From positions 13,656 through 77,655 of the forward strand of contig JAFUGC010000003.1 in assembly GCA_017469565.1 (NCBI GenBank): a stretch of DNA of 64,000 bases, in the 5' to 3' direction. Under the pieces are notes generated by a model. That model was not told the DNA's origin, did no database searches, and saw only the letters and a program-made list of their open reading frames with translations. The DNA comes from Clostridia bacterium (lineage in GTDB: Bacteria > Bacillota > Clostridia > TANB77 > UBA1234). How positions within the stretch are numbered: the first letter of the stretch is position 1; each line of letters starts with the position of its first letter. A program made the position numbers and the translations under genes. Of this stretch, positions 542 through 54,757 are shown piece after piece.

Positions 542-942
542 ACTCTATTCCTCCTAAAATTGTACTAATCAATGCAATGTAACTTGCATTAACCTACCCT
601 CCTATTCTACAACGAACTAGGGGCAAATTTCAATATTTTTGTCGAATTTTTGATAAGAAAAATTCTGGGAAAGTTAGCTGTTTCTAACAATTCAGGACAA
701 CCTATCTAAAAAATGTAGTCCATTAGGATATGAAAATAAATGTGATACTATAAATGTATAATGAAGTTTGGGAGAATTATATGACACGAAAAATTTTTAT
801 TAATGAAAAGAAGCTAAAAGCAGAAACATAAGCAGCAATATTTTGATTGCATTATGTAAATTGCCGTGTTATAATATGGCTGTTTACATATACCTTGTCA
901 TTTCGACAAAGAGACTTCTTAAACGAAAGGTGGTATTTACAG

Positions 943-3729
943 GTGACTAAAAAGCAATTAGACGCGATTGAAGTAATGCTCCTAAAGATTGACGAAAATG
1001 ATTCCTATAAGGCTCCTTTGGAAAAAGAATACGAGCTTTACCGGACTTCATTAGAATCGATTCCCAGAGACGTGAATGTTCCACAAACACTTTCCACAAG
1101 TGTATTTTCCATGGAACAACGGTTAAGAAATTATGTGATTTTAGGCAAATCAAGTAACCCTCTTTTAGAACTGGCACCAACCATTTCCCCAAAAATCACA
1201 AGCGAAGAGGACAAAAAAGAACTTGTAAATCTTGCAAATTCAAATGCCTCGTATATTGCAAACCGGAAATCAAGCCTTGCTATCTTGAAATCGTATTTAG
1301 ATAAGATTGATTTTCAGGGGAATCTGGAAGACATTTGCTCCACCATTAAGCTGGTGCAAGAAAAGTATGAAAAGACGAATATTTTTTCTAATGAATTTGA
1401 GCAAGAGATTACTAGGGCCAAGTATTTTTATGAACTCAGGCTTTTATATGATGGTGAGCTTTCTCGTGCCAGCGAATATGCAACGCATTTTGATTCTGGC
1501 ATGATTTTGTTTCTTCATAAGCATCATCAAGATACGGTCCATAGGCTTTTGGAAGAGGGAAGGTCCAGGCTTGCCGAAGAACTCAATACTTTTCTGACTG
1601 AAATGCCTCAGGATAAGGAAAAGGATATTGCGTTTTGGAAAGTCTTGGCGCAAATTGAAAACCCGGAGTATAATCCCAACAGCGACATTATCATTGATGA
1701 AAGCAATTCTATCGTGGTAGATGAGATAGAAGAAACAACCAAAGAGATTACGACCGTGAAGAAAAGACGGTTCTTATCTTTGAGAAATCTCTTCCAAAGA
1801 AAAAGTTTGAGCGTTCCGGGGGAAAGTATGATTGTTTCGGCTTCCAAAACAAAAAACTCCAAGTACTACAGTGCTTCATTGAATTCAGAAAGTGTGGTCA
1901 TTCATTTAACCCTTAACTTTGAGTTTTATATGCTCCAAGACGAATTAGACAAATTAGAGAATTTATTATCTACTTGGTACAAAAAGGAGAGCGAGCCGTT
2001 TTCCAATGTATCCGTTTATGTAACAGAAGTGTATAGCACTCCCATGTTTGAAAAATATGAGTATGCCGATTTAGGGAGAATTGTCCGAAGGCTTACCAAT
2101 TATGCTCATATCACTCTTTTGGACGTGAAAGTTTCTCAAAAGAGCCATATTTATGAGATAACGGAGGGTATGTTTCAAGGAACGTATTTTGACACTTTTG
2201 TAGTTCATGGTGGTTTATGGAAAATTGGTCCCTTTGCCTTCTATAAGACGCATTTCTTGCAAAAAGTGGACTTTAGCGATGCCAAGATTTATCACATCAA
2301 AGATTATGCGTTTAGTGAGGCACAAAATTTGACAGAGGTTATCTTACCTGAAATTTCAACTGCCATCATGGATAGTCATGATTTAGGTGCTTATGTTTTT
2401 GAAAACTGTTATTCGCTGACTAAATTTGAATTCCCATACAATCTCACTGAGATTAATGAGGGGTTCTTTAAAGGGTGCAGAAAGCTGACGTCAGTTGGCT
2501 ATCTTGGCCAAATTACCCGGATTGGTGACAGAGCATTTGAAGGCTGTGAGAATTTTTCTGATTTTCCTTTTTCCTCTGATATTGAAGAAGTAGGGCATAG
2601 AGCCTTCTTTGGATGCAAGTTACTCACGGATTTTAGCTTTAAAAATATACGCCGTATTGGAGACTATGCATTTGCAGAAACGGGCCTTAAAAGTGTTACC
2701 TTAACACTAGAACTCCATCAGGTGGGAGTTGGTATTTTTTCTAAGAGTAATCTCCATTCTGTATGGATAGAAGACTCTTTGGTATTAACTTCTGAAATTT
2801 TTAAGGGCTGTCAAAACTTGGAGCGCGTACATCTGGATGATGGCATTGCCGTATTTGGAGATGCTTGTTTTGAGGATTGCAAAAATCTTGAAAGCGTGAA
2901 TATTCCAAGTATCCTTGGTCAATTAGGAGAAAAGTGCTTTAAGAATTGCAAAAGTCTATCGGTATTGGAATTTCCTGTTGGTTGCAGAAGAATCGGAGCG
3001 GAATGCTTTAGTGGCTGTGATGGACTCACCAAATTTCAGCTCCCAAAAGTGGATGTGATTGAGCCAAAACTGTTCTATGAATGCACTCATTTAGAAACTG
3101 TTACATTTGCGGATGAAAAGGAATTGCTAGAAATATCCGAAAAGGCGTTTTGCCTGTGCGGTAGGCTAAGAGACTTTAAGATTCCGTCAAATGTGAAAGC
3201 GATTGGAAACGGTGCCTTTGCAGGAACGGATTTGGAAAAAGTTATCCTTCCGGATTCTCTCACAGATTTAGGAGAAGGTGTTTTTAATGAATGCAGACGC
3301 TTGGAAGAAGTAACGCTGTCCAAGTATCTAAGAGAAATTAAAGCGGAAACGTTCAGAAACTGCTATAATTTGTGTGAAATAGACCTGTCTCCTTGCTATA
3401 TCAGTACTATTGGAAAATACGCATTTGCCAGATGTGATTCCTTAAAAAAGATTGTGCTATCGGTAGGAATCCGAAAAGTATACAAAAGTTCTTTTGAAAA
3501 AGTTTATAGCATAGATACGATTGTGGTTCCAGTGAAGCTGATTGGCTTATCAAAGGAGGAACAAGAACGAATCCACGAAGATTATACGCCACTATACAGT
3601 TTCTTGGAAAACAGCCTAGGCTTAAGCGAGGATTTTAGCATTGTTAGTGTTAGTATGGAAGCAGAGGAAACGGTTGCGATTCAGCTGAATTTCCATTATG
3701 GAAGTGCTAAAGTAACCCTTGCCAAGTAA
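943..3729 (+). CDS. Large cytoplasmic-type leucine-rich-repeat protein (BspA/LRR_5-type repeats) with a ~330-aa N-terminal domain of unknown function; paralog 1
   Basis: ORF 847-3729; likely GTG start at 943 after RBS AAAGGTGG. The C-terminal two-thirds is repeated ~25-aa units (F.GC..L..V.LP..L..IG..AF). No signal peptide is evident. Confidence 0.7.
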   Translation: MTKKQLDAIEVMLLKIDENDSYKAPLEKEYELYRTSLESIPRDVNVPQTLSTSVFSMEQRLRNYVILGKSSNPLLELAPTISPKITSEEDKKELVNLANSNASYIANRKSSLAILKSYLDKIDFQGNLEDICSTIKLVQEKYEKTNIFSNEFEQEITRAKYFYELRLLYDGELSRASEYATHFDSGMILFLHKHHQDTVHRLLEEGRSRLAEELNTFLTEMPQDKEKDIAFWKVLAQIENPEYNPNSDIIIDESNSIVVDEIEETTKEITTVKKRRFLSLRNLFQRKSLSVPGESMIVSASKTKNSKYYSASLNSESVVIHLTLNFEFYMLQDELDKLENLLSTWYKKESEPFSNVSVYVTEVYSTPMFEKYEYADLGRIVRRLTNYAHITLLDVKVSQKSHIYEITEGMFQGTYFDTFVVHGGLWKIGPFAFYKTHFLQKVDFSDAKIYHIKDYAFSEAQNLTEVILPEISTAIMDSHDLGAYVFENCYSLTKFEFPYNLTEINEGFFKGCRKLTSVGYLGQITRIGDRAFEGCENFSDFPFSSDIEEVGHRAFFGCKLLTDFSFKNIRRIGDYAFAETGLKSVTLTLELHQVGVGIFSKSNLHSVWIEDSLVLTSEIFKGCQNLERVHLDDGIAVFGDACFEDCKNLESVNIPSILGQLGEKCFKNCKSLSVLEFPVGCRRIGAECFSGCDGLTKFQLPKVDVIEPKLFYECTHLETVTFADEKELLEISEKAFCLCGRLRDFKIPSNVKAIGNGAFAGTDLEKVILPDSLTDLGEGVFNECRRLEEVTLSKYLREIKAETFRNCYNLCEIDLSPCYISTIGKYAFARCDSLKKIVLSVGIRKVYKSSFEKVYSIDTIVVPVKLIGLSKEEQERIHEDYTPLYSFLENSLGLSEDFSIVSVSMEAEETVAIQLNFHYGSAKVTLAK

Positions 3730-3745
3730 AAAGGAGGGGTAGTCA

Positions 3746-5830
3746 GTGATTATGGGTAACGATTTAAACAGAATTGGTATTTATATTTCTAAGCTAGCCC
3801 CGAATGACACATATAAGGCTGCTTTAGAAAAAGAGTATCATTTTTATCGGGAAGTTTTAGAGGCTTTTCCGGCAGATTCTGCTCTGCCGGAAGAGCTTAT
3901 TTCGAGCATTTATTCTTTGCTTCAAAGAATCAAAAACTATGTGGTTTTTGGTAACACCAGTAATCCTTTAGTGCCTATCGTTCCCTATATGACAGAGCTG
4001 ATTGACTGTGAAAATGACAAAGAAAAAATCATTGCAAAAGCCAAGACAAATCCTTCCTTTATTGCTAATAGAAGGCAGAAACTTGCTATTTTCAAACAGC
4101 TTTTAGATGCCATTGACTATGGCGGAGAAAGAAAGGATATTCGGGGAACCATCGATCTTGCCACTACAGAATATGAAAAGAGTAATATTTACGCAAGTGA
4201 TTTTGAGCAAGAAATTGCCAAGGCAAAGTATTTTTATATGATAAGACTAATCATGGATGATGCGATAGACGATGCCAATATACTTGCACAAGATTTTGAG
4301 ACAGATATGCTTCTTTTTATGCATCTTAGGCATAAGGATAGTGTTTCACATCTTTTAAAAGAAAGCAAAGCGATGCTGGCAAATGAAATGTATCATTTTT
4401 TAAATGAGTTCCAGGATGGTAAGATTCATGATATTGAATTTTGGAAGATTCTCGCACAAATTGAAAATCCGGAATGGATGCTAAAAGAAGAGAGAAAAGA
4501 AGAAAAGAATCAAGAAGAATTGGAAAATGAAACTTCCTTGGAAGAATTGATAATGGACAAAGAGCCTGCAACAAGCAAGCACAGTTTATTTGAAGTCATT
4601 TCAAGAAAACGGATAGAAAGAAAATTCTATACGGTAGTTTCAGAAGAACACGAATATATCCATATTACTTTGAAACATTTTCAGGGATTTATCATGCCTA
4701 AAGCGGAAATAAAAAAGCTTAATCATTTTTTAAGGAAGCTGGGAGGCTCTCATGGAGAGCATTATAAAACAATAACAATTCAAACCTTTGCTTACAATAA
4801 AGTTCATAGCTATGATTTACGGGATACTCTTTCGATTCGTCATGTGATTGAGTGTATTAGCTATTATCTGCCATCTTCACAATTGGTTCTTGATTTTTCT
4901 TACTGTCATACAACTCACATTCCTCAAGAATTTTTTGAAAATCTAAGCATTACAAAAGTGGTGTTACCATACGATTTGCAGGTGATAGAAGATTTTGCTT
5001 TTCATGGTTGCAAAGAATTAGAAGAAGTTATCTTTCCTGAAAAGTTGCTTGAGATTCGCACGGGAGCATTTCTCGGGTGTTTCAAATTAAAACAAGCAGA
5101 CTTAAGTAAAACATCACTGAAAAAGAATGGCTTGAAAAATAGATGCTTTGAAAGTTGCACTGACCTTGAAAAAGTTCTTTTTAATGATGAATTACAAGTA
5201 ATTGGTGAGGAGGCATTTAGATGTTGTGAGTCACTAAGGCAGATTTCATTGAAAAATGTTTCCATTATTGAGCCATATGCATTTTTGTATTGTTACCACT
5301 TAGGAAAAGTAGAAGAAACGCAAAACTTAACAATGATAGGGACAAGTGCTTTTAAAGAATGTAAAAATCTTAAGCATTTTAATTTTCCAACCTATTATGA
5401 TGAAACAGAACTTATCATTGAAGAAGAAGCCTTTGCTTTAAGCGGACTTAAAAAAATGTATATGGATTGCATCCACTTAAGTATAGGGGAAGGCATTTTC
5501 AAAAACACTAATTTGAAGAAAGCTGAGATTCATAGCACTATCACAAGTCTTCCAGAAAGTACTTTTGAGGGATGTTCCGAATTAGAAGAAGTCATTTTAC
5601 CCGCTAATCTAGAAACGCTAGAAGAGGGCTGTTTTAAGGAATGCATTTCTTTAAAAGTGATAGATCTTCCAAAATCTTTAAAAAGAATTAACCGAGATAG
5701 TTTTAGAGATTGTGAAGAAATTGAAATGATTCATTTTTCAGGACAGCTTGAATATGTTGGAGATAATGCCTTTTGTGGCTGCGATGCTTTAGACCTGAAA
5801 AAACTCAACTTTATGACACCAATAGACTAA
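3746..5830 (+). CDS. Leucine-rich-repeat protein, paralog 2 (same N-terminal domain + LRR_5 repeats)
   Basis: RBS AAAGGAGGGG lies 9 nt upstream. The N-terminus (KAALEKEYHFYREVLE...FEQEIAKAKYFY...FWKILAQIENPEW) aligns with paralog 1 (KAPLEKEYELYRTSLE...FEQEITRAKYFY...FWKVLAQIENPEY). Confidence 0.7.
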   Translation: MIMGNDLNRIGIYISKLAPNDTYKAALEKEYHFYREVLEAFPADSALPEELISSIYSLLQRIKNYVVFGNTSNPLVPIVPYMTELIDCENDKEKIIAKAKTNPSFIANRRQKLAIFKQLLDAIDYGGERKDIRGTIDLATTEYEKSNIYASDFEQEIAKAKYFYMIRLIMDDAIDDANILAQDFETDMLLFMHLRHKDSVSHLLKESKAMLANEMYHFLNEFQDGKIHDIEFWKILAQIENPEWMLKEERKEEKNQEELENETSLEELIMDKEPATSKHSLFEVISRKRIERKFYTVVSEEHEYIHITLKHFQGFIMPKAEIKKLNHFLRKLGGSHGEHYKTITIQTFAYNKVHSYDLRDTLSIRHVIECISYYLPSSQLVLDFSYCHTTHIPQEFFENLSITKVVLPYDLQVIEDFAFHGCKELEEVIFPEKLLEIRTGAFLGCFKLKQADLSKTSLKKNGLKNRCFESCTDLEKVLFNDELQVIGEEAFRCCESLRQISLKNVSIIEPYAFLYCYHLGKVEETQNLTMIGTSAFKECKNLKHFNFPTYYDETELIIEEEAFALSGLKKMYMDCIHLSIGEGIFKNTNLKKAEIHSTITSLPESTFEGCSELEEVILPANLETLEEGCFKECISLKVIDLPKSLKRINRDSFRDCEEIEMIHFSGQLEYVGDNAFCGCDALDLKKLNFMTPID

Positions 5831-5866: not shown

Positions 5867-6110
5867 TCTGCATTTGGGGATGCAATTGGGGGACACCTTC
5901 CAAAGAGGTGCATTTGGGGATGCAATTGGGGATGCATTTGGGGACACCTTCCAAAAGCATCATATGTCATGCACATTTGGAGATGCATTAGGAAGGTGTC
6001 CCCGAATGCATGACATATGATGCTTTTGGAAGGTGTCCCCAAATGCATCCCCAAATGCATCCCCAAATGCACCTCTTTGGAAAGTGTCCCCAATTGCATC
6101 TTGCCAAACA
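5863..6110. repeat. ~250-bp long-arm palindrome built from GCATTTGGGGA direct repeats and GGGGACACCTTCC / GGAAGGTGTCCCC cores
   Basis: The left arm (~5866-5970) is the near-exact reverse complement of the right arm (~6012-6110). The centre also carries GGAAGGTGTCCCC. The spurious ORFs 5863-6336(-) and 6017-6133(+) are translations of this repeat. Confidence 0.7.
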
Positions 6111-7668: not shown

Positions 7669-8106
7669 TTATTTTGCTTTTTTAGCAACTGGCTTTTTAG
7701 CAACTGGTTTAGCAGCTGTTTTTTTAGCAGCTGGTTTAGCAGCAGCCGTTTTCTTAGCAGCTGGTTTAGCAGCAGCTGTTTTCTTAGCAGCTGGTTTAGC
7801 AGCAGCTGTCTTCTTAGCAGCTGGTTTAGCAGCAGCTGTCTTTTTAGCAGCTGGTTTAGCAGCAGCCGTTTTCTTAGCAGCTGGTTTAGCAGCAGCTGTT
7901 TTCTTAGCAGCTGGTTTAGCAGCAGCTGTCTTTTTAGCAGCTGGTTTAGCAGCAGCTGTCTTTTTAGCAGCAGGCTTAGCAGCAGCTGTTTTCTTAGCAG
8001 CTGGTTTAGCAGCTACTTTTTTAGTAGCAGTTTTAGCAGCAACTGTTTTTTTAGCAGCTGGTTTAGTTGTAGCCTTTTTAGCTGTAGTTTTTTTAGCTGT
8101 TGGCAT
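7669..8106 (-). CDS. Lys/Ala-rich histone-H1-like (AlgP/Hc-like) DNA-binding repeat protein
   Basis: 145 aa; the decapeptide PAAKKTAAAK is repeated ~11 times. Strong RBS (AGAGAGGGGGG) lies upstream of the ATG on the minus strand. Confidence 0.6.
   Translation of the reverse strand: MPTAKKTTAKKATTKPAAKKTVAAKTATKKVAAKPAAKKTAAAKPAAKKTAAAKPAAKKTAAAKPAAKKTAAAKPAAKKTAAAKPAAKKTAAAKPAAKKTAAAKPAAKKTAAAKPAAKKTAAAKPAAKKTAAKPVAKKPVAKKAK
7711..8040. repeat. Perfect 30-bp tandem DNA repeats (~9 full units, phased at 7741, 7771 ... 7981) encoding the KA-repeat protein
   Basis: Unit agcagcNgtNttcttagcagctggtttagc, with only third-position differences between units. Confidence 0.8.
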
Positions 8107-28018: not shown

Positions 28019-28168
28019 GCTTTTGATGCTTTCGGAAGGTGTCCCCAAAAACATTTTTGAAATTTGTTGCTTTTTATGTTAATCCCTGATAAAATGAATC
28101 CGCAATTGAATTGGTTTTGGGTAGTCTTTGTTTTTTGTTAAATGAAGAATGAAAAAGGAGGAATGTTT

Positions 28169-47036: not shown

Positions 47037-47150
47037 AAAACTCCAGTTGCCCAAGGGGACAGTGATATCTACTCCAAACCCCATACCTAACCTCCCTAGG
47101 TTTGGAGTAGATATCACTGTCCCCTTGGGCGACTGGAGTTTTCTACAGCC
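47036..47150. repeat. Near-perfect ~50-bp-stem hairpin (bidirectional terminator between the UDG-like gene and recQ) with a GGGGACAGTG core
   Basis: gtagaaaactccagttgcccaaggggacagtgatatctactccaaacc ... ggtttggagtagatatcactgtccccttgggcgactggagttttctac. Confidence 0.7.
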
Positions 47151-49259: not shown

Positions 49260-50246
49260 ATGGATGGAGAAAAAATAATAGAGGCGGCAAAAGTAATTAA
49301 AAATGGAGGAATTGTTTTATTTCCCACAGAAACTGTGTATGGGATTGGAGCAAATGCACTAAATGATGAAGCGGTGGAAAAGATATTTATCGCCAAGGGG
49401 CGTGCACAGGATAATCCTTTGATTTTGCATATTTCAGATAGGGAGATGTTAGCACAGATTGTAGAGGATGTATCTGAAATGGAATATAGGCTGATGAATG
49501 CTTTTTGGCCGGGGCCTTTTACCATAATTCTAAATAAAAAAGAGGGGATTGCCAATGTTGCTACCTGCCATGGAAATACGGTTGGCGTTAGAATGCCGAG
49601 CAATCCCATTGCACAAGAACTCATAAGAGAGGCAGGGGTGCCTATTGCAGCACCGAGTGCGAATATTTCAGGCAAGCCGAGTGGAACCAAACTTTCGGAT
49701 ATTTTTGAGGAATTAAAAGACAAAGTGGATTACATGATAGATGGCGGAGAAACAGACATTGGGCTTGAGTCTACTGTTGTAAGGGTGATTGAGGATGAAG
49801 TGAGAATCTTAAGACCTGGTAAAATCACCCAAGAGGATATTGAAAAAGTCATGAATCATGTGGAAATTGACAAAAATGTGATGGGGGAGATTGCACCAAA
49901 TGAAAAGGTATTGTCTCCGGGCATGAAGTACAGGCATTATGCACCAAAGACGCATTGCAAATTGATTTATAGTAGTGATAGCAATAAAATGATTGCTAAG
50001 GTTCTTAGCATCGCTAAGGAATATCAAAATGTGGTCATCTTGTCTTTTCGTGAAGATATTGCTAGTTTTAAGGGCTATGAATGTATTGATATTGGGAGTA
50101 AAAATGATTTAGAAGAGGTTTCTCATCATATTTTTTCTGCATTAAGAAAAATTGATGAGTATGATGTTGATTTGGCTCTGATAGAAGGAGTGGAAGCAAA
50201 GCGGCATTGGCCTTGCCATTATGAACAGATTAATGAGAGCATGTGA
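49260..50246 (+). CDS. tsaC: L-threonylcarbamoyladenylate synthase (YrdC + Sua5 C-terminal domain)
   Basis: YrdC fold motifs (VLFPTETVYGIGANA, SANISGKPS) plus a Sua5 domain; 328 aa. Confidence 0.85.
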   Translation: MDGEKIIEAAKVIKNGGIVLFPTETVYGIGANALNDEAVEKIFIAKGRAQDNPLILHISDREMLAQIVEDVSEMEYRLMNAFWPGPFTIILNKKEGIANVATCHGNTVGVRMPSNPIAQELIREAGVPIAAPSANISGKPSGTKLSDIFEELKDKVDYMIDGGETDIGLESTVVRVIEDEVRILRPGKITQEDIEKVMNHVEIDKNVMGEIAPNEKVLSPGMKYRHYAPKTHCKLIYSSDSNKMIAKVLSIAKEYQNVVILSFREDIASFKGYECIDIGSKNDLEEVSHHIFSALRKIDEYDVDLALIEGVEAKRHWPCHYEQINESM

Positions 50247-50256
50247 ACATGATTTT

Positions 50257-50529
50257 GTCATTGTCATTTAGGAATCGTCATCTAGGGACAGCTCTTCGTC
50301 AATTAGGGACAACCATTTTTGACGTAACATAATTAAGTGAAATATTAAGGGTCGCATCTTTTTATTTCATTGAATTTAATTGGCATAGAGTAAAGGCTTT
50401 AAGGGTTGAATTATTTGTATATGAATAGAAAAGTTGATAAAATATCAATCAAATAATAATGAATACAAAATAAAAAATGGGTATTAAGAGAGGAGTTATG
50501 TAACGTCAAAAAGTGCTGTCCCTAAATGA
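50257..50529. mobile_element. MITE-like repeat copy 1 (~270 bp, ~38-bp terminal inverted repeats)
   Basis: Left end GTCATTTAGG...TAGGGACAGC...TTAGGGACAACCATTTTTGACGTAACATAATTAAG. Right end AGTTATGTAACGTCAAAAAGTGCTGTCCCTAAATGA. Conserved internal GGGTCGCATCTTTTTATTTCAT. Confidence 0.65.
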
Positions 50530-50554
50530 TTTTATTTTATGAAAGGAGAAACTA

Positions 50555-51619
50555 ATGGAAAATAATGATTTAGTAAAACAAGGAAAAAATGAAATAACAA
50601 AAACTGATATTTCTATTATGGGAAATAAAGAAATTACTTCTGATTTTATGTTAGAAGAGATTATTTCTAAAGCTATTCAAATACCCGGTGTAAAAGTAGA
50701 TAGAAATAAGTTCCTAGCAGAAGAATTTTCTTCAAAAGTTGATATACTAGAAAATATAATTAATAATGGCCCAATAGAGACTGGAATATCTAGAGAAGAA
50801 ATTAATAATTTAGCGAATAAATTAATAATAAAAAGAACGAGTCAATCTTCAATTGCTTCATTTGCTGCTGGTATTCCTGGAGGATTAGTAATGGCGGCAA
50901 CAATTCCAGCAGATATATTACAATTTTTTGGAATGGCTTTAAGACTTGCACAGGAACTATCATATCTATATGGAGCAGACGATTTATGGAAAAATGGACA
51001 AGTTGATGATGAAAAAATTAAAAATCAATTAATACTTTACTGTGGAGTTATGTTTGGAGTATCTGGAGCAGTTTCGGGTGTTAGGGTTTTATCAACTCAA
51101 ATTGCAAAAACAGCACTAAAGAAAATTCCGCAAAAAGCATTAACCAAAACATTTTGGTATCCAATTATTAAAAAAACATGTTCATTTGTTGGATATACTC
51201 TTACAAAGAAGGCTTTCGCTTCTGGTGTTTCTAAAGCAATACCAGTTATTGGTGGTGTAATATCGGGAACAATTAATTTTGCCTCAATGATGCCTATGGC
51301 AAAGAGACTAAATGGTACATTGGATGAAGCTACTTTTGATTATTCAGAAGAAGAATTTAATAAAGATATTGAAATATTAAGTACTGAAAGTGGAGAAGTA
51401 ACTGAAGAAGAAAAACAAGATTTCAAAGAAAAATTTGCAGAAGGATTTAATAAAACTAAAGATAGTGTTTCAAATTGGTTTTCCAAATTAGGTAAGAATA
51501 AAAATGAGTCAAAAAAAGACCCTATAGAAGAAATAAAAAAATATAAAGAATTATTGGATTCTGGTATTATTAATCAGGAAGAATTTGATAACAAGAAAAA
51601 AGAACTATTAAATTTATAA
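50555..51619 (+). CDS. EcsC-family-like membrane-associated protein with a C-terminal SHOCT domain
   Basis: Central GIPGGLVMAATIPADILQFFGMALRLAQELSYLYG (EcsC-like). C-terminal EEIKKYKELLDSGIINQEEFDNKKKELL (SHOCT). RBS AAAGGAG. Confidence 0.55.
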   Translation: MENNDLVKQGKNEITKTDISIMGNKEITSDFMLEEIISKAIQIPGVKVDRNKFLAEEFSSKVDILENIINNGPIETGISREEINNLANKLIIKRTSQSSIASFAAGIPGGLVMAATIPADILQFFGMALRLAQELSYLYGADDLWKNGQVDDEKIKNQLILYCGVMFGVSGAVSGVRVLSTQIAKTALKKIPQKALTKTFWYPIIKKTCSFVGYTLTKKAFASGVSKAIPVIGGVISGTINFASMMPMAKRLNGTLDEATFDYSEEEFNKDIEILSTESGEVTEEEKQDFKEKFAEGFNKTKDSVSNWFSKLGKNKNESKKDPIEEIKKYKELLDSGIINQEEFDNKKKELLNL

Positions 51620-51644
51620 AGATTTGAGTTACTCGTAAGATTTT

Positions 51645-51895
51645 GTCATTTAGGGACCGTCATTTAGGGACAACCCTTTTTGACGTAACATAATTAAGTG
51701 AAATATTAAGGGTCGCATCCTTTTATTTCATTTAATTGGCATAAAGTAAAAGCTATAAGGGGTAAAATTATTTGTTTTTGAAAGGAAAAATTGTTAGAAT
51801 ATCAAGCGAACAATAATGAATAAAAAAGGTATTAAGAATGGAATTATGTAACGTCAAAAATGGTTGTCCCTAATTGACGCTCCCTAATTGACGAA
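51645..51895. mobile_element. MITE-like repeat copy 2
   Basis: Same element: GTCATTTAGGGACCGTCATTTAGGGACAACCCTTTTTGACGTAACATAATTAAG ... GAATTATGTAACGTCAAAAATGGTTGTCCCTAATTGACG. Confidence 0.65.
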
Positions 51896-51981
51896 ATCAA
51901 ATTCAATGGGCTATTCTCACATTATCAAACACCAGTGAAAGTACTGAAAAATAAGCATTTTTTGCAAGGAGATGAGAAATA

Positions 51982-53010
51982 ATGTCGAAAGATTTAATCA
52001 TAAGAAGCAGTAGTGCAGAATTTTTAATATTTGAGAGACAGTCACATGATAAAGGAGTTCAAGTTAGATTTGAAAATGGAGACTTATGGTTAACCCAAAA
52101 AGCAATAAGTGAATTATATGACTGTTCCACAGACAATGTTGGATTACATTTAAAAAACATATATAATGACTATGAATTGGACAGGGATTCAACTACCGAG
52201 GATTTCTCGGTAGTTCAAAAAGAGGGAAATAGAGAAGTAAAAAGAACAATCAAGTATTATAATTTAGATGCGGTAATTTCTGTAGGATATAGGGTAAATT
52301 CAGACCGAGCAATACAATTCAGAAGGTGGGCAACGAATATATTAAAAGAGTTCTCTAAAAAGGGATATATTATTGATAAAAAGAGAATGGAAAATGGTGC
52401 TTTTTTTGACGAAGACTATTACGATTCTTTACTTGCTGAAATAAGAGAAATACGATTATCTGAGAGAAGATTCTATCAAAAAATAACGGATATATATGCA
52501 ACTAGTGTAGACTATGATTCTAGGTCACCAATTACAATAAAGTTCTTTAAAAAAGTTCAAAATAAAATGCATTATGCGGTATCTCATCAAACTGCAGCAG
52601 AGATAATCTATCATAGAGCAGATGCAGAAAAAGACAATATGGGATTAACATCATGGAAAAATTTTCCTAATGGAAAAATACTTGAGACAGATGTAGTCAG
52701 TGCTAAAAACTATTTATCAAAAGAAGAATTAGAACAATTAGAATTGATAGTTTCTGCATTTTTAGATTTAGCAGAAGCAAGAGCAAAAAGAAATATTCCT
52801 ATGACGATGGAGGATTGGGCAACAAGAATTGATAAGTACTTGTTATCAGATGATAGAGATATATTAAAGGATGCAGGAAAGATATCACATGAGATAGCTT
52901 GTGATAAGGCTTTAACTGAATTTGAAAAATATAGAGTGAAACAAGACAAGTTATATAAATCAGATTTTGATAAATTAATGGAAGAAAGCGAGAATTATTA
53001 TGTCATTTAG
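51982..53010 (+). CDS. RhuM-family virulence-associated protein
   Basis: N-terminal FERQSHDKGVQVRFENGDLWLTQKAISELY and overall length ~342 aa match the RhuM family. The stop codon TAG lies inside the TIR of repeat copy 3. Confidence 0.75.
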   Translation: MSKDLIIRSSSAEFLIFERQSHDKGVQVRFENGDLWLTQKAISELYDCSTDNVGLHLKNIYNDYELDRDSTTEDFSVVQKEGNREVKRTIKYYNLDAVISVGYRVNSDRAIQFRRWATNILKEFSKKGYIIDKKRMENGAFFDEDYYDSLLAEIREIRLSERRFYQKITDIYATSVDYDSRSPITIKFFKKVQNKMHYAVSHQTAAEIIYHRADAEKDNMGLTSWKNFPNGKILETDVVSAKNYLSKEELEQLELIVSAFLDLAEARAKRNIPMTMEDWATRIDKYLLSDDRDILKDAGKISHEIACDKALTEFEKYRVKQDKLYKSDFDKLMEESENYYVI

Positions 53011-53224
53011 GGACAGCCCTTTTTGACGTAACATAATTAAATGAAATATTAAGGGTCGCATCTTTTTATTTCATTTAGTTGGCATAAAGTAAAAGCTTTA
53101 AGGGATAAAATTATTTGTTTAAGAAAGGAAAAATGGCTAAAATATCAAGTGAACAATAATGAATAAAAAAAGGTATTAAGAATGGAATTATGTAACGTCA
53201 AAAAGGACTGTCCCTAATTGACGT
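53002..53224. mobile_element. MITE-like repeat copy 3
   Basis: GTCATTTAGGGACAGCCCTTTTTGACGTAACATAATTAAA ... GGAATTATGTAACGTCAAAAAGGACTGTCCCTAATTGACG. Confidence 0.65.
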
Positions 53225-53265: not shown

Positions 53266-53904
53266 ATGAAACTAATACTGAGTTCCTGTGATTTTCTAAA
53301 TGAAAATTCTAAAAAAGTTATTTTAGAAAATATAGACAAAAATATAGCAGAGTGTAAAGTGTTGTTTATACCGAATGAAAATGCAACACAAGAGAAGATT
53401 TGTTCTGATAAATATTACAATAGATTATACAGTGATGGATTTACAAATAGAAAAAATATTTATATCTTTAATGAATTCGAATCAGACAAATACAGAAATT
53501 TAGACATTGATTTAATTTATATCAGTGGTGGTAATACTTTTGCTACTCTAAACAAATTAAAAAAATGTGGTTTTGATAAAGATATAATTAATTATATTAA
53601 GAAAAGTGTTACGTATATAGGTGGGTCATGTGGAGCAAATATTGTTACTCAAAATATTGAACATTTATTAAGTCTTGATGATAATTATGTAGATATCAAA
53701 AATTATGATGCATTAGGATTATTTGATGGAATAATAATTTCGCATTATGGAGCATCGGAATATAATGCCGAATTAAGAGAAAAAGTATATAATGACGCTA
53801 TTCAATTTGGAAAATATAAAGTATATAAACTTACAAATGATGATTCGATAGTCGTAATAGATGATAAAGTAATTATATATAAAGGAAGTGATAAAAATGA
53901 GTGA
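53266..53904 (+). CDS. Peptidase S51 (dipeptidase E-like) family protein
   Basis: IYISGGNTF and YIGGSCGANIV motifs (Ser nucleophile context), 212 aa. Confidence 0.65.
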   Translation: MKLILSSCDFLNENSKKVILENIDKNIAECKVLFIPNENATQEKICSDKYYNRLYSDGFTNRKNIYIFNEFESDKYRNLDIDLIYISGGNTFATLNKLKKCGFDKDIINYIKKSVTYIGGSCGANIVTQNIEHLLSLDDNYVDIKNYDALGLFDGIIISHYGASEYNAELREKVYNDAIQFGKYKVYKLTNDDSIVVIDDKVIIYKGSDKNE

Positions 53905-54757
53905 AAATCAAAATCAAATCCAGTGGTATCCGGGCCATATGGCTAGGGCAAGGCGTGAAATTGCTGAGGCAGTAAAACTGGTTGACGTGGTCATAGAGCT
54001 TGTGGATGCTAGAATTCCGGTGGCTAGTAGGAATCCTGTTTTGAACGAAATTATTGGGGAGAAACCTAGAATTATTGTACTAAATAAGGCGGATTTGGCC
54101 AACGGTGAGGATACGAAAAATTGGATTAAAAAATATAAGGAAAAAGGACAAGCTGCAGTAGAAGTCAATTCTAATGTTGGTAGTGGAATTAATCATGTGC
54201 TAGATGCTGTTTATGATTTGATGAAAGAAAAGCTTGAGAGAAAGGAGAAACAGGGGCTTGTAGGGGCTTCTGTGAAGGCCATGGTGGTTGGTATTCCAAA
54301 TGTGGGGAAATCGTCATTTATTAATAAAGTGGCAAAAAAGCCAACTACTGCAACTGGTAATAAACCGGGTGTGACAAGGAAGAACCAATGGGTAAGATTA
54401 AATGATAGGATTCAGCTTCTTGATACGCCAGGGGTTTTGTGGCCTAAGTTTGAAGATGAAAAACTGGCAAGGCATCTTGCATATATTGGGACTATCAAAG
54501 ATGACATTATGGATGTGGAGGAGCTTTCTTTCCACTTGGTGACGGAGCTTTTGGAGATAGAGAAGGCAAAGCTTTTTGAACGATTTAAAATTAGTGAAGA
54601 TTTTGAATATGAGATGCCACTCGAGGTGCTTGAAGAGATTGGAAGAAAAAGAGGCTGCCTTGTGAGAGGTGGAGAGATTGATTATACTAAGGTTGCTAAT
54701 ATTATTCTAGAAGAGTTTAGAAGTGGGAAGATTGGGCGAATCACACTTGAAAAGTAA
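53897..54757 (+). CDS. rbgA: Ribosome biogenesis GTPase A (YlqF/RbgA)
   Basis: Circularly permuted GTPase motifs (NKADL ... GIPNVGKSS ... DTPG). Starts QIQWYPGHMA. ATG is 8 nt after AAAGGAAG. Confidence 0.9.
   Translation: MSENQNQIQWYPGHMARARREIAEAVKLVDVVIELVDARIPVASRNPVLNEIIGEKPRIIVLNKADLANGEDTKNWIKKYKEKGQAAVEVNSNVGSGINHVLDAVYDLMKEKLERKEKQGLVGASVKAMVVGIPNVGKSSFINKVAKKPTTATGNKPGVTRKNQWVRLNDRIQLLDTPGVLWPKFEDEKLARHLAYIGTIKDDIMDVEELSFHLVTELLEIEKAKLFERFKISEDFEYEMPLEVLEEIGRKRGCLVRGGEIDYTKVANIILEEFRSGKIGRITLEK

What the first reader, a model, noticed from the sequence alone, without database searches (positions are those of the whole stretch)
50257..53224. Cassette-like array: three unrelated genes each preceded by the same ~230-270-bp MITE-like repeat with ~38-bp terminal inverted repeats
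The conserved tsaC and rbgA genes are separated by an insertion. In it, three copies of one repeat (50257-50529, 51645-51895, 53002-53224) alternate with three functionally unrelated genes: an EcsC/SHOCT protein, a RhuM virulence-family protein, and an S51 peptidase. The repeat ends are inverted copies of GTCATTTAGGGACAGCCCTTTTTGACGTAACATAATTAA. Partial end duplications occur (GTCATTTAGGG x2-3, CCCTAATTGACG x2). The conserved interior (GGGTCGCATCTTTTTATTTCAT ... TTGTTAGAATATCAAG...TAATGAATAAAAAAGGTATTAAG) contains promoter-like hexamers facing the downstream gene. The stop codon of the RhuM gene is supplied by the repeat TIR. This repeat-gene-repeat organisation resembles gene-cassette arrays or MITE-mobilised accessory genes. 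No integrase or transposase is present in the window.
Basis: seen in the sequence. Interest (0 to 1): 0.65.

Follow-up and report, generated by a model that had tools for sequence, protein, structure and literature searches.

The report
Decayed tyrosine-transposase mini-elements in an island
The three repeats are real: they are gutted, non-coding copies of a small tyrosine-transposase element of a kind already described, sitting between three imported genes at a chromosomal spot (the start of rbgA) where foreign DNA often lands, so this is a tidy but fairly ordinary case, not a new gene-cassette system.

Summary
Three 220-280-bp copies of one repeat, 88-93% alike, alternate with three low-GC genes between tsaC and rbgA. 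Each copy has ~38-57-bp terminal inverted repeats.

Each end is a hairpin-forming palindrome, CGTCAWTTAGGGACNNCCNTTTTTGACG, followed by the tail TAACATAATT. In related Clostridia contigs the same ends flank an intact 245-249-aa RAYT-like HUH/Y1 transposase (Pfam Y1_Tnp). That gene's last codons and stop lie inside the right end, exactly as in the window's copies.

So the repeats are internally deleted, non-autonomous derivatives of a "TIRtron" (TIRYT) element (Di Nocera 2013). Metagenome loci show a decay series: 335 bp, then 330 bp, then a 96-bp doublet, then single ends. An intact relative with near-identical inner ends occurs in the same five samples as this strain.

The "cassette" reading is only partly supported. 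The rbgA 5' end is an integration hotspot. One relative has a large serine recombinase abutting rbgA, others carry co-oriented gene arrays, and ICE Tn5253 is published as using this site. But the junctions in relatives are duplicated rbgA 5' stubs, not this repeat.

The mini-elements look like secondary insertions. No target duplication and no empty site were found. I rate it a new member of a known kind, of moderate-to-low interest.

The parts
50251..50529 (+). Mini-element copy 1. It has extra outer half-sites (50257-50262, 50263-50275, 50277-50289), a left end at 50297-50334, an internal hairpin at 50331-50376, a remnant of the transposase 3' coding region at about 50430-50503, and a right end at 50496-50529.
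   Evidence: (I3, I11). One search shows 50430-50529 matching the 3' end of the intact transposase gene plus right end in L015 (80% over 104 nt). Its first full half-site supplies the TAG (50269-50271) that ends the conserved +1 frame of tsaC.
51639..51898 (+). Mini-element copy 2, the most complete. It has 57-nt inverted ends (51639-51695 and 51842-51898), each with a duplicated half-site, and an internal hairpin at 51692-51737.
   Evidence: I1, 89% complementary. (14-nt unit x1.9 at both ends); as single-stranded DNA the 260 nt fold at -50.3 kcal/mol, z = -7.7; end hairpins and internal hairpin (-9.1 kcal/mol, z = -6.2); 51811-51896 matches the L015 transposase 3' end plus right end (85%).
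53002..53223 (+). Mini-element copy 3. Left end 53002-53038, internal hairpin 53035-53080, right end 53186-53223.
   Evidence: (I2). Homology of the RhuM 3' end to L047 and L050 stops exactly at 53001. The TAG stop of RhuM lies in the left end.
49260..50271 (+). tsaC/sua5. The annotated ORF ends at 50246. The conserved C-terminus continues in the +1 frame from 50203 to a TAG at 50269-50271, inside copy 1.
   Evidence: Pfam Sua5_yciO_yrdC + Sua5_C. C-terminal comparison.
50555..51619 (+). Cargo gene 1: SHOCT-domain protein with a weak EcsC-like region. 28.5% GC.
51895..51965 (+). Relic of an older rbgA 5' junction. It comprises a stub tail (AAATCAAATTCAATGG) followed by a leader also found at junctions of the array in L047.
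   Evidence: aligns with L047 4880-4955, 9520-9590 and 12720-12795. The right end of copy 2 abuts it.
51982..53010 (+). Cargo gene 2: RhuM-family protein. 30.5% GC.
   Evidence: Pfam 1.8e-106. It is 70% identical (aa) to a RhuM in the L050 array and 89% identical (DNA) to a RhuM pseudogene in the L047 array.
53266..53904 (+). Cargo gene 3: S51 (PepE-like) peptidase. 24.4% GC. Its 3' end overlaps the rbgA ribosome-binding site and start.
53884..54757 (+). rbgA/ylqF with its ribosome-binding site (GGAAGTGATAAAAATG). The first ~10 codons, up to ATCCAGTGG, are the segment duplicated as stubs in relatives. This marks the inferred attachment site.
   Evidence: Literature.
44103..44324 (+). Related palindromic repeat cluster outside the island. 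A 71-bp unit occurs x3.1, each with CGTCAAAAAGGGAC|GTCCCTGATTGACGG.
   Evidence: It resembles the end clusters next to the resident transposase gene (L061 4786-4990).

Best explanation
Each repeat is a non-autonomous, internally deleted derivative of a TIRtron. A TIRtron is a RAYT-like HUH/Y1 tyrosine transposase gene (TIRYT) bracketed by long inverted ends.

What each copy retains:
- the left end (hairpin palindrome plus the tail TAACATAATT);
- a strong hairpin that, in intact elements, sits where the upstream gene's terminator lies;
- a scrambled remnant of the 5' region;
- the last ~10-20 codons and the stop codon of the transposase gene;
- the right end.

All three copies share one internal architecture. 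They therefore descend from a single deletion derivative that was copied afterwards (inferred). The most likely copying route is mobilisation in trans by a resident TIRYT acting on the single-stranded hairpin ends, as RAYT does on REP sequences and IS200/IS605 TnpA does on its ends. That would give no target duplication and a strand or orientation bias.

The three genes they separate are low-GC cargo lying in an integration hotspot at the 5' end of rbgA. The mini-elements are later arrivals in the spacers and gene ends of that island, not the sites that assembled it. A side effect is possible but untested: each copy places a hairpin after the upstream gene and an outward promoter-like site before the downstream gene.
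For: Shown:
1. In L007 (Clostridiales bacterium UBA1234) and L015, the same ends flank a 249-aa ORF. There are two direct copies upstream and one inverted copy downstream, and the ORF's stop lies inside GGAGTTATGTAACGTCAAAAAGG.
2. That ORF is Pfam Y1_Tnp (7e-10). It matches NCBIfam REP_Tyr_transpos over the full profile (69 bits against a cutoff of 80). It has HVH and YIHNNP (the class-2 'Y---NP' signature). Its best solved-structure relative is E. coli TnpAREP 4ER8. It has a weak C-terminal helix-turn-helix.
3. The right ~70-100 nt of each window copy align to the transposase 3' coding region plus right end (80-85%).
4. Metagenome loci show natural intermediates: L036 is 335 bp with aa 26-193 deleted. 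L011/L025 are about 330 bp with a 44-codon ORF. L035 is a 96-bp inverted doublet. Many single ends sit directly after stop codons.
5. The duplicated half-sites at the ends also occur in intact elements (L015, L036/L029, L061).
6. The ends fold as a 5-bp foot, a 3x3 internal loop and a 4-bp top, followed by a single-stranded tail.
7. The ends carry the published TIRYT motif GGGGWSAS: GGGGACAC in relatives and AGGGACAR in the window.
8. An intact TIRYT (P0248) is found in the same five samples as the window's TsaC and RbgA. It lies on contigs of compatible GC, and its inner 29 nt of end sequence are nearly identical to the mini-elements'.
9. Other GGGGWSAS-type hairpin doublets lie in unrelated spacers of the window.
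10. There is no target duplication. All three copies are co-oriented on the G-rich strand.

Hotspot evidence: in L056 a large serine recombinase ends inside the rbgA ribosome-binding site. At least 11 rbgA 5' stubs mark the junctions of co-oriented arrays in L047 and L050. L058 has six small low-GC genes between rplS and rbgA. The literature documents ICE integration in the rbgA 5' end.
Against: - The ~150-bp core shared by the three copies was found nowhere else. That covers one scan each of GTDB species representatives and JGI metagenomes, three IMG/VR scans, and all held loci. Mobility of this particular derivative is therefore not shown.
- The rest of the genome could not be scanned.
- No empty site was found, because all same-strain contigs carry the identical array.
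- The copies differ by 7-12%, so any transposition is not recent.
- Three of three consecutive spacers occupied is unlikely by chance (about 0.002 for ~60 spacers), and the model does not explain it.
- The outer half of the mini-element ends (GTCAWTTAGGGAC) matches the L015-type element rather than the resident P0248 (GTCAAACAGGGAC).
- Assignment of P0248 to the same genome rests only on co-occurrence and GC.
- TIRYT activity on such ends has never been demonstrated biochemically.
Confidence: 0.72

Rival explanations
1. The repeat is the recombination site of a cassette system (integron-like or attC-like). Each repeat-plus-gene unit is a mobile cassette, captured one after another between tsaC and rbgA by a recombinase encoded elsewhere.
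For: - Strict alternation and co-orientation with three unrelated low-GC genes.
- Homology of RhuM to its relatives ends exactly at the left edge of copy 3.
- Two of the three junctions lack the rbgA stub seen in relatives, and the third keeps only its tail.
- Three consecutive spacers occupied is non-random.
- The locus is a genuine hotspot with cassette-like arrays in relatives.
Against: - The arrays in L047, L050 and L058 do not use this repeat.
- No repeat-gene unit recurs in 29 metagenome loci that carry the ends. There the ends are single, paired, or flank the transposase.
- The repeat demonstrably contains the decayed 3' end of a transposase gene.
- The window has no integrase.
- At 220-280 bp, with ends that do not read GTTRRRY, it does not look like attC.
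Confidence: 0.08
2. This is old local duplication, not transposition. One mini-element was inserted once, and the other two copies arose within the island by unequal crossing-over, gene conversion or segmental duplication.
For: - This derivative was found only in the island.
- There is no target duplication.
- Divergence is 7-12%.
- The array is identical in all contigs of the strain.
Against: - The DNA between the copies shares no homology, being three unrelated genes. Segmental duplication would have copied flanking sequence too.
- Each copy has complete left and right ends with its own pattern of half-site duplication.
- Y1 transposases make no target duplication anyway.
Confidence: 0.1
3. 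Composite capture. Pairs of mini-elements act as the outer ends of a larger transposable unit (left end of copy n to right end of copy n+1). The Y1 transposase then moves the enclosed gene, and this assembled the array.
For: The geometry allows it. ecsC (50251-51898) and rhuM (51639-53223) are each bracketed by a correctly oriented left and right end.
Against: - No such composite was seen elsewhere.
- S51 has an element on one side only.
- RAYT/TIRYT genes are reported as single-copy and not self-mobilising.
Confidence: 0.04
4. The copies are retained because they work as expression modules: a hairpin or terminator for the upstream gene and a promoter for the downstream AT-rich foreign gene. 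This could hold whatever their origin, so it does not exclude the best explanation.
For: - A conserved 46-nt hairpin is present in all copies (I6/I7, 55).
- TTGACG-N16-(TG)AATATT faces downstream in all three left ends.
- The right end lies 26-86 nt before each start codon.
- All copies are co-oriented with the genes.
Against: - Promoter-like matches are common in this AT-rich DNA (34 against 22.9 expected).
- The hairpin lacks a T-tract and was not called as a terminator.
- Co-orientation is equally expected from strand-biased Y1 insertion.
- There are no expression data.
Confidence: 0.15

Closest known systems
TIRtrons / TIRYT (TIR-associated tyrosine transposases) and their TIR repeat families. 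Di Nocera et al. 2013, PMC3733652. Equivalent to subclass 2.1 TnpAREP-like proteins of Quentin et al. 2018, PMC6006769.
   Same: - A RAYT-like HUH/Y1 protein longer than IS200 TnpA, with a C-terminal helix-turn-helix.
- Flanked by long inverted ends rather than GTAG REPs.
- The 3' end overlaps the gene.
- The ends carry GGGGWSAS and partly self-complementary tracts.
- The ends also occur in the genome as singles, dimers and clusters.
   Different: - The host is uncultured Clostridia from gut or rumen-type metagenomes.
- This derivative keeps ~150 bp of interior, including the transposase's last codons, so it is a deletion derivative and not a bare end dimer.
- Three copies sit in consecutive spacers of one island.
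- The window copies read AGGGACAR, matching 7 of the 8 motif positions.
REPIN-RAYT systems (Bertels and Rainey 2011, PMC3116915, PMC3337134).
   Same: - Two inverted hairpin-forming units form a larger hairpin.
- They are non-autonomous and presumed to be moved by a single-copy Y1 transposase.
- They are located in spacers close to gene 3' ends.
- They decay to singlets.
   Different: - There is no 5' GTAG tag.
- The units are ~38-57 nt with a 150-nt spacer, against ~20-25 nt units with a short spacer.
- The high copy number typical of REPINs is not shown.
- The transposase scores below the NCBIfam RAYT cutoff.
IS200/IS605-derived miniature elements (PATEs) and classical DDE-type MITEs.
   Same: Small, non-coding, hairpin-ended and dependent on a transposase supplied in trans. 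As with IS200/IS605, there is no target duplication.
   Different: - IS200/IS605 ends are not inverted repeats of each other.
- Classical MITEs have target duplications and DDE transposases. Neither applies here.
Site-specific integration in the 5' end of rbgA (ICE Tn5253 and other streptococcal ICEs, PMC8571831, PMC4701971). Also tandem accretion of recombinase-less remnants, as in staphylococcal SCC composite islands (my own knowledge, not checked here).
   Same: - Foreign DNA lies directly upstream of rbgA.
- Integration duplicates the first codons of rbgA and restores the CDS.
- Successive junction repeats (stubs) occur in L047 and L050, and one relic is in the window.
   Different: - The recombinase seen next to rbgA here is a large serine recombinase (L056), whereas the streptococcal ICEs use a tyrosine integrase.
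- Units between stubs are often single genes of 0.5-3 kb.
- The window itself has no recombinase and only one stub relic.
Integron gene cassettes (attC).
   Same: A co-oriented array of unrelated, promoter-poor small genes separated by an imperfect inverted-repeat element.
   Different: - There is no intI/attI.
- The repeat is a transposase-gene remnant, 2-4 times longer than attC, without the R''/R' core sites.
- Relatives' arrays do not use it.

Membership tests
TIRtron/TIRYT-derived TIR repeat | The cognate protein is an HUH/Y1 transposase of the TnpAREP-like class (HUH motif; Y---NP motif). | tested here: met
   For L007, L015 and L061: Pfam Y1_Tnp 3e-10 to 7e-10. NCBIfam REP_Tyr_transpos full-length at 69 bits, below the 80-bit equivalog cutoff. 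HVH and YIHNNP are invariant in a 20-sequence alignment. Best PDB hit is TnpAREP 4ER8, E = 0.0012. The protein is not encoded in the window.
TIRtron/TIRYT-derived TIR repeat | The transposase gene is flanked by long terminal inverted repeats, not GTAG REPs, and the 3' repeat may overlap the gene. | tested here: met
   The inverted ends are ~38 nt. The stop codon lies inside the right end in L007, L015 and L036.
TIRtron/TIRYT-derived TIR repeat | The TIR carries the GGGGWSAS motif. | tested here: met
   GGGGACAC occurs in L007 (second left end), L011, L025, L027 and L030. GGGGACAA is also seen. The window copies read AGGGACAA or AGGGACAG, matching 7 of 8 positions. The motif is as quoted.
TIRtron/TIRYT-derived TIR repeat | The ends form a dispersed repeat family (single, dimer, cluster) in the genomes that hold the gene. 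| tested here: inconclusive
   Across metagenome loci the ends occur singly, as a 96-bp dimer and in clusters. Within the window's own genome only 64 kb plus a few contigs could be examined: three mini-elements and one related cluster.
TIRtron/TIRYT-derived TIR repeat | The transposase cleaves or joins the ends (mobility). | not testable with these tools
   According to the papers read, this has not been demonstrated for any TIRYT.
REPIN (RAYT-mobilised REP doublet) | Short REP units with a conserved 5' GTAG at the hairpin foot. | tested here: not met
   The foot is CGTCA/TGACG and the conserved unpaired flank is TAACATAATT.
REPIN (RAYT-mobilised REP doublet) | Two inverted units that form one long hairpin. 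| tested here: met
   (-50.3 kcal/mol, z = -7.7). The spacer is ~150 nt.
Classical MITE | Terminal inverted repeats plus a target-site duplication of fixed length. | tested here: not met
   The inverted repeats are present. No consistent flanking duplication appears at any plausible boundary.
Integron cassette array | An adjacent intI integrase and attI, with attC sites of about 60-140 bp bearing RYYYAAC/GTTRRRY cores. | tested here: not met
   No recombinase was found among the main window ORFs scanned. The repeats are 220-280 bp and end in GTCAWTTAGGG, not GTTRRRY.
Integrative-element accretion at the rbgA 5' end | A junction repeat made of the rbgA upstream region plus its first codons, with the rbgA CDS restored. 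| tested here: met
   Met in relatives (L047, L050). The window has only one relic (51895-51912) plus the functional start.
Integrative-element accretion at the rbgA 5' end | A site-specific recombinase at the element end next to rbgA. | tested here: inconclusive
   Present in L056 (Resolvase + Recombinase + Zn_ribbon_recom). Absent from the window, L047, L050 and L058 as far as they extend.

The most novel reading that the evidence does not exclude
In this clade of gut or rumen Clostridia, the stretch upstream of rbgA may be a serine-recombinase-fed array of mostly single-gene units, each carrying its own leader. That would be an integron-like accretion system whose attachment site is the first ~10 codons of an essential GTPase gene. 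In the window's lineage, the TIRYT mini-elements would have replaced the original junction stubs and now serve as the junctions, either as portable homology or as expression modules. The evidence does not exclude this. Stubs of several rbgA N-terminal variants delimit 0.5-3-kb units in L047 and L050, and a large serine recombinase abuts rbgA in L056. In the window, two of the three junctions lack stubs exactly where the mini-elements sit.
Probability: 0.12. Interest if true: 0.7.

Novelty: new member of a known kind. Interest (0 to 1): 0.33.

Why it matters
It links a repeat that looked like an orphan to a defined parent, a RAYT-like tyrosine transposase with inverted ends. It also provides a natural decay series from the intact gene to single ends, in Clostridia. 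That series is a useful illustration of how hairpin repeat families arise.

TIRYT elements and their repeats have been described mostly in Proteobacteria and Acidobacteria, and they have never been tested biochemically. The short, well-defined ends here, with a candidate resident enzyme (P0248), would make a simple in vitro system.

For annotation, the result warns that repeat-gene-repeat patterns inside integration hotspots need not be cassette systems. The context is of some interest too. It points to the rbgA 5' end as a hotspot used by different recombinase classes across Firmicutes.

Tried and rejected
**Ideas considered and dropped**
- Xer/dif-module idea. TTATGTAA in the ends recalled the XerD arm of dif (from memory). 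I rejected it because that sequence is the last codons and stop of the transposase gene within the end.
- CRISPR or another array for the 71-bp tandem at 44.1 kb. Rejected: it is a cluster of the same palindrome type.
- Known RNA families. Nothing in the island, in L047 or in L050. The sub-threshold 'MIR7127' hit is another DNA hairpin doublet.
- Phage origin. The ends, the core and the rbgA stub are all absent from IMG/VR.
- CGTC-tagged REPs of Di Nocera 2013. This is only a superficial match, because here CGTC is part of the stem, and those REPs lack a transposase.

**Searches that did not give the hoped-for result**
- Empty-site search. Exact-protein look-ups of TsaC, RbgA and RhuM returned only the same strain with the same array. 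The nearest TsaC relatives are at most 77% identical and not syntenic.
- Search for the 150-bp core elsewhere. None found.
- Second candidate transposase, P0271, from the same samples. It has different ends (ACCAAGTGGGACAACC...) and lower GC, so it probably belongs to another organism and is not the cognate enzyme.
- Repeat-gene alternation in other loci. L031 has two ends flanking one gene but no array.
- Target-site duplications. None found.

Full report
**1. The observation**

The region was read directly. Three copies of one repeat lie at about 50251-50529, 51639-51898 and 53002-53223. A degenerate 32-nt pattern for the end matches exactly six times in 64 kb: the three left ends on + and the three right ends on -. 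Shuffles gave none.

The repeat finder reports 3-copy direct families and inverted arms of 34-57 nt. Copy 2 is the most complete, with 57-nt arms that are 89% complementary. End to end the copies are 88-93% identical, and the interior is conserved.

They are 24-30% GC, against 39-40% for tsaC and rbgA. The RhuM stop codon lies in the left end of copy 3.

**2. Anatomy**

Each "terminal inverted repeat" is itself an imperfect palindrome, CGTCAWTTAGGGAC-NN-CCNTTTTTGACG. As single-stranded DNA it folds into a 5-bp foot, a 3x3 internal loop and a 4-bp top. A conserved unpaired tail follows, TAACATAATT on the left and its complement on the right.

The half-site GTCAWTTAGGGAC is iterated at the outer edges. 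A 46-nt hairpin lies just inside the left end in all copies (-9.1 kcal/mol, z = -6.2). The whole of copy 2 folds at -50.3 kcal/mol (z = -7.7). No flanking target duplication is present.

**3. The parent element**

One scan of species-representative genomes with 20 nt of the end returned a single locus, in Clostridiales bacterium UBA1234 (L007). There, two direct copies of the end lie upstream, and one inverted copy lies downstream, of a 249-aa ORF. That ORF's final codons and stop (…GGAGTTATGTAA) are part of the right end. The window copies have the same sequence at the same place.

The ORF has these properties:
- It is Pfam Y1_Tnp.
- It matches the NCBIfam REP-associated tyrosine transposase model over its full length, though below the equivalog cutoff (69 bits against 80).
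- It carries HVH and YIHNNP.
- Its nearest solved relative is E. coli TnpAREP.
- It has a weak C-terminal helix-turn-helix.

About 470 relatives exist, mostly 245-250 aa. Where a source names them, it is mostly as transposases of uncultured Clostridia.

A metagenome scan with a degenerate end pattern gave 29 loci:
- a second intact element (L015, 79% identical protein);
- a 335-bp derivative lacking aa 26-193 (L036);
- ~330-bp derivatives with a 44-codon ORF (L011, L025);
- C-terminal fragments (L020, L023, L029);
- a 96-bp inverted doublet (L035);
- many single ends placed directly after the stop codons of unrelated genes.

The right 70-100 nt of each window copy align with the transposase 3' coding region plus right end. 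The window repeats are therefore one more stage of this decay series. Because all three share the same interior, they were copied after the deletion (inference).

**4. Comparison with what is known**

Di Nocera et al. (2013) described RAYT-like genes flanked by long inverted repeats. They named them TIRYT and TIRtrons. The repeats share GGGGWSAS, are sometimes self-complementary, and form moderately abundant families of singles, dimers and clusters. Quentin et al. (2018) place most TIRYTs in TnpAREP-like subclass 2.1, which has a C-terminal helix-turn-helix, and give Y---NP as the class-2 signature.

The elements here fit all of these sequence features. They do not fit canonical REPINs (no GTAG), classical MITEs (no target duplication, not DDE-type) or integron attC sites.

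**5. A resident enzyme**

P0248 is 70% identical to the L007 protein. It is encoded downstream of ppdK on contigs from the same five samples that hold the window's TsaC and RbgA. The GC content of those contigs is compatible with the window's.

The ends of the P0248 element share the inner 29 nt (GGGACAACCNTTTTTGACGTAACATAATT) with the mini-elements. They differ in the outer half-site: GTCAAACAGGGAC, against GTCAWTTAGGGAC, which is the L015 type. Trans-mobilisation by it is plausible but unproven. Alternatively, the mini-elements may have come in with the low-GC island.

A second transposase from the same samples (P0271) has different ends and lower GC, so it probably belongs to another organism.

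The window itself has further hairpin repeats of the same general type at 5869-6100, 28031-28048, 44103-44324 and 47026-47150. Such repeats are therefore common in this genome's spacers.

**6. Is it a cassette array?**

All contigs of the same strain carry the identical array, so no empty site is available. More distant relatives are informative in four ways.

- *Ancestral order.* The conserved block is ffh-rpsP-rimM-trmD-rplS followed by rbgA (L058; window rplS at 38501-38869). tsaC is not a conserved neighbour.
- *Small low-GC genes upstream of rbgA.* L058 has six between rplS and rbgA. L047 and L050 carry long co-oriented arrays of unrelated small genes next to tsaC.
- *Junctions in those arrays.* They are copies of the rbgA ribosome-binding site plus its first ~10 codons, up to …ATCCAGTGG. 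Several N-terminal variants occur. Recurrent leader sequences follow. One such relic lies in the window at 51895-51965, right against copy 2.
- *A recombinase at the site.* In L056 (RbgA 86% identical, same study) a large serine recombinase ends inside the rbgA ribosome-binding site.

The 5' end of rbgA is a published attachment site of ICE Tn5253 and other streptococcal ICEs. The island is thus best read as cargo left at an integration hotspot.

The mini-elements do not occur at the equivalent junctions in relatives, and the RhuM genes of L047 and L050 lack them. Copy 1 overlaps the end of the conserved tsaC reading frame, and copy 3 replaces the last RhuM codons. All of this points to later insertion.

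Two things remain unexplained. All three spacers are occupied, which has a probability of about 0.002 if placement were random. The expected stubs are missing at two junctions.

**7. Mechanism**

Shown:
- the sequence homology to the transposase element;
- the hairpin ends;
- the absence of a target duplication;
- the co-orientation on the G-rich strand.

Inferred, by analogy with TnpAREP and IS200/IS605:
- recognition of the single-stranded end hairpins and their adjacent tails by a Y1 enzyme supplied in trans;
- cleavage and joining without duplication;
- preference for single-stranded DNA at the replication fork, which would also give uniform orientation.

Speculative: each copy ends transcription of the upstream gene and supplies a promoter to the downstream foreign gene (one search shows only consensus matches in AT-rich DNA).

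**8. Verdict**

The repeats are a new member of a known kind, a TIRYT-derived miniature element, lying in a known kind of hotspot. Interest is moderate to low.

The most novel reading still open is a serine-recombinase-fed, integron-like array at the rbgA start. It concerns the context more than the repeat, and I give it about 12%.

Noticed in passing
window 50199-50271 (tsaC 3' end); also L046 about 7820-7880 and L050 about 7950-8030: The annotated tsaC ORF ends out of frame (…EAKRHWPCHYEQINESM*). After skipping C50202 (AAG-C-GGC), the +1 frame encodes the conserved Sua5 C-terminus GIGLAIMNRLMRACEHDF…. The same disruption, at the same site (AAR-CGG), occurs in 5 of 120 TsaC cluster representatives (P0001, P0002, P0003, P0011, P0034). 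Among the three whose DNA was held (window, L046, L050), the +1 frame keeps its amino acids through mostly synonymous changes, and all five same-strain contigs checked agree. This is a candidate programmed +1 frameshift. The slippery P-site codon is a Lys ANN codon read by a t6A-modified tRNA, and TsaC makes t6A, so an autoregulatory loop is conceivable (speculation). A text search of four terms, any two required, listed no paper linking the two among the eight shown of 279 hits.
   Followed up: partly
L047 4861-14830; L050 9340-14290; L056 1-1260; L058 6294-10000: Relatives carry co-oriented arrays of small unrelated genes. Examples are acetyltransferases, HIT, NUDIX, deaminases, RhuM, isochorismatase and Ham1. 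The junctions repeat the rbgA ribosome-binding site and first ~10 codons in several N-terminal variants, followed by two or three recurrent leader types. In L056 a large serine recombinase gene ends inside the rbgA ribosome-binding site. RbgA N-termini and lengths vary accordingly (284-309 aa).
   Followed up: partly
window 5869-6100 and 28031-28048: A second hairpin-repeat family: iterated TGCATTTGGGGA half-sites plus TTGGGGACACCTTCCAAA. At 5889-5973 / 6007-6091 it forms an inverted doublet with 85-nt arms that are 98% complementary. A singleton lies after a terminator at 28.03 kb.
   Followed up: partly
window 47026-47150: A near-perfect hairpin with ~53-nt arms, containing AAGGGGACAGTG (GGGGWSAS-type), lies between the convergent UDG and recQ genes. 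It caused a spurious sub-threshold Rfam hit to plant MIR7127 (59 bits against a gathering score of 100).
   Followed up: partly
window 44103-44324: A 71-bp tandem unit x3.1 lies between an ABC-2 permease gene and a YgjV-like gene. Each unit holds the palindrome CGTCAAAAAGGGAC|GTCCCTGATTGACGG. It resembles the end clusters next to the resident transposase gene in L061.
   Followed up: partly
L031 229-703: A cluster of six canonical GTAG-type REPs (GTAGCGGCGGTCATTGACCGCCA) lies in a metagenome contig that also carries the TIRYT-type ends. Both repeat types therefore coexist in that organism.
   Followed up: no
window 7669-8106 (-) and 7694-8066: A 30-bp tandem repeat x12.6 lies inside an ORF that scores as a histone-H1-like HC2 / low-complexity Ala-Lys-rich protein.
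   Followed up: no
window 847-5830: Two adjacent large BspA-type leucine-rich-repeat proteins (960 and 694 aa).
   Followed up: no
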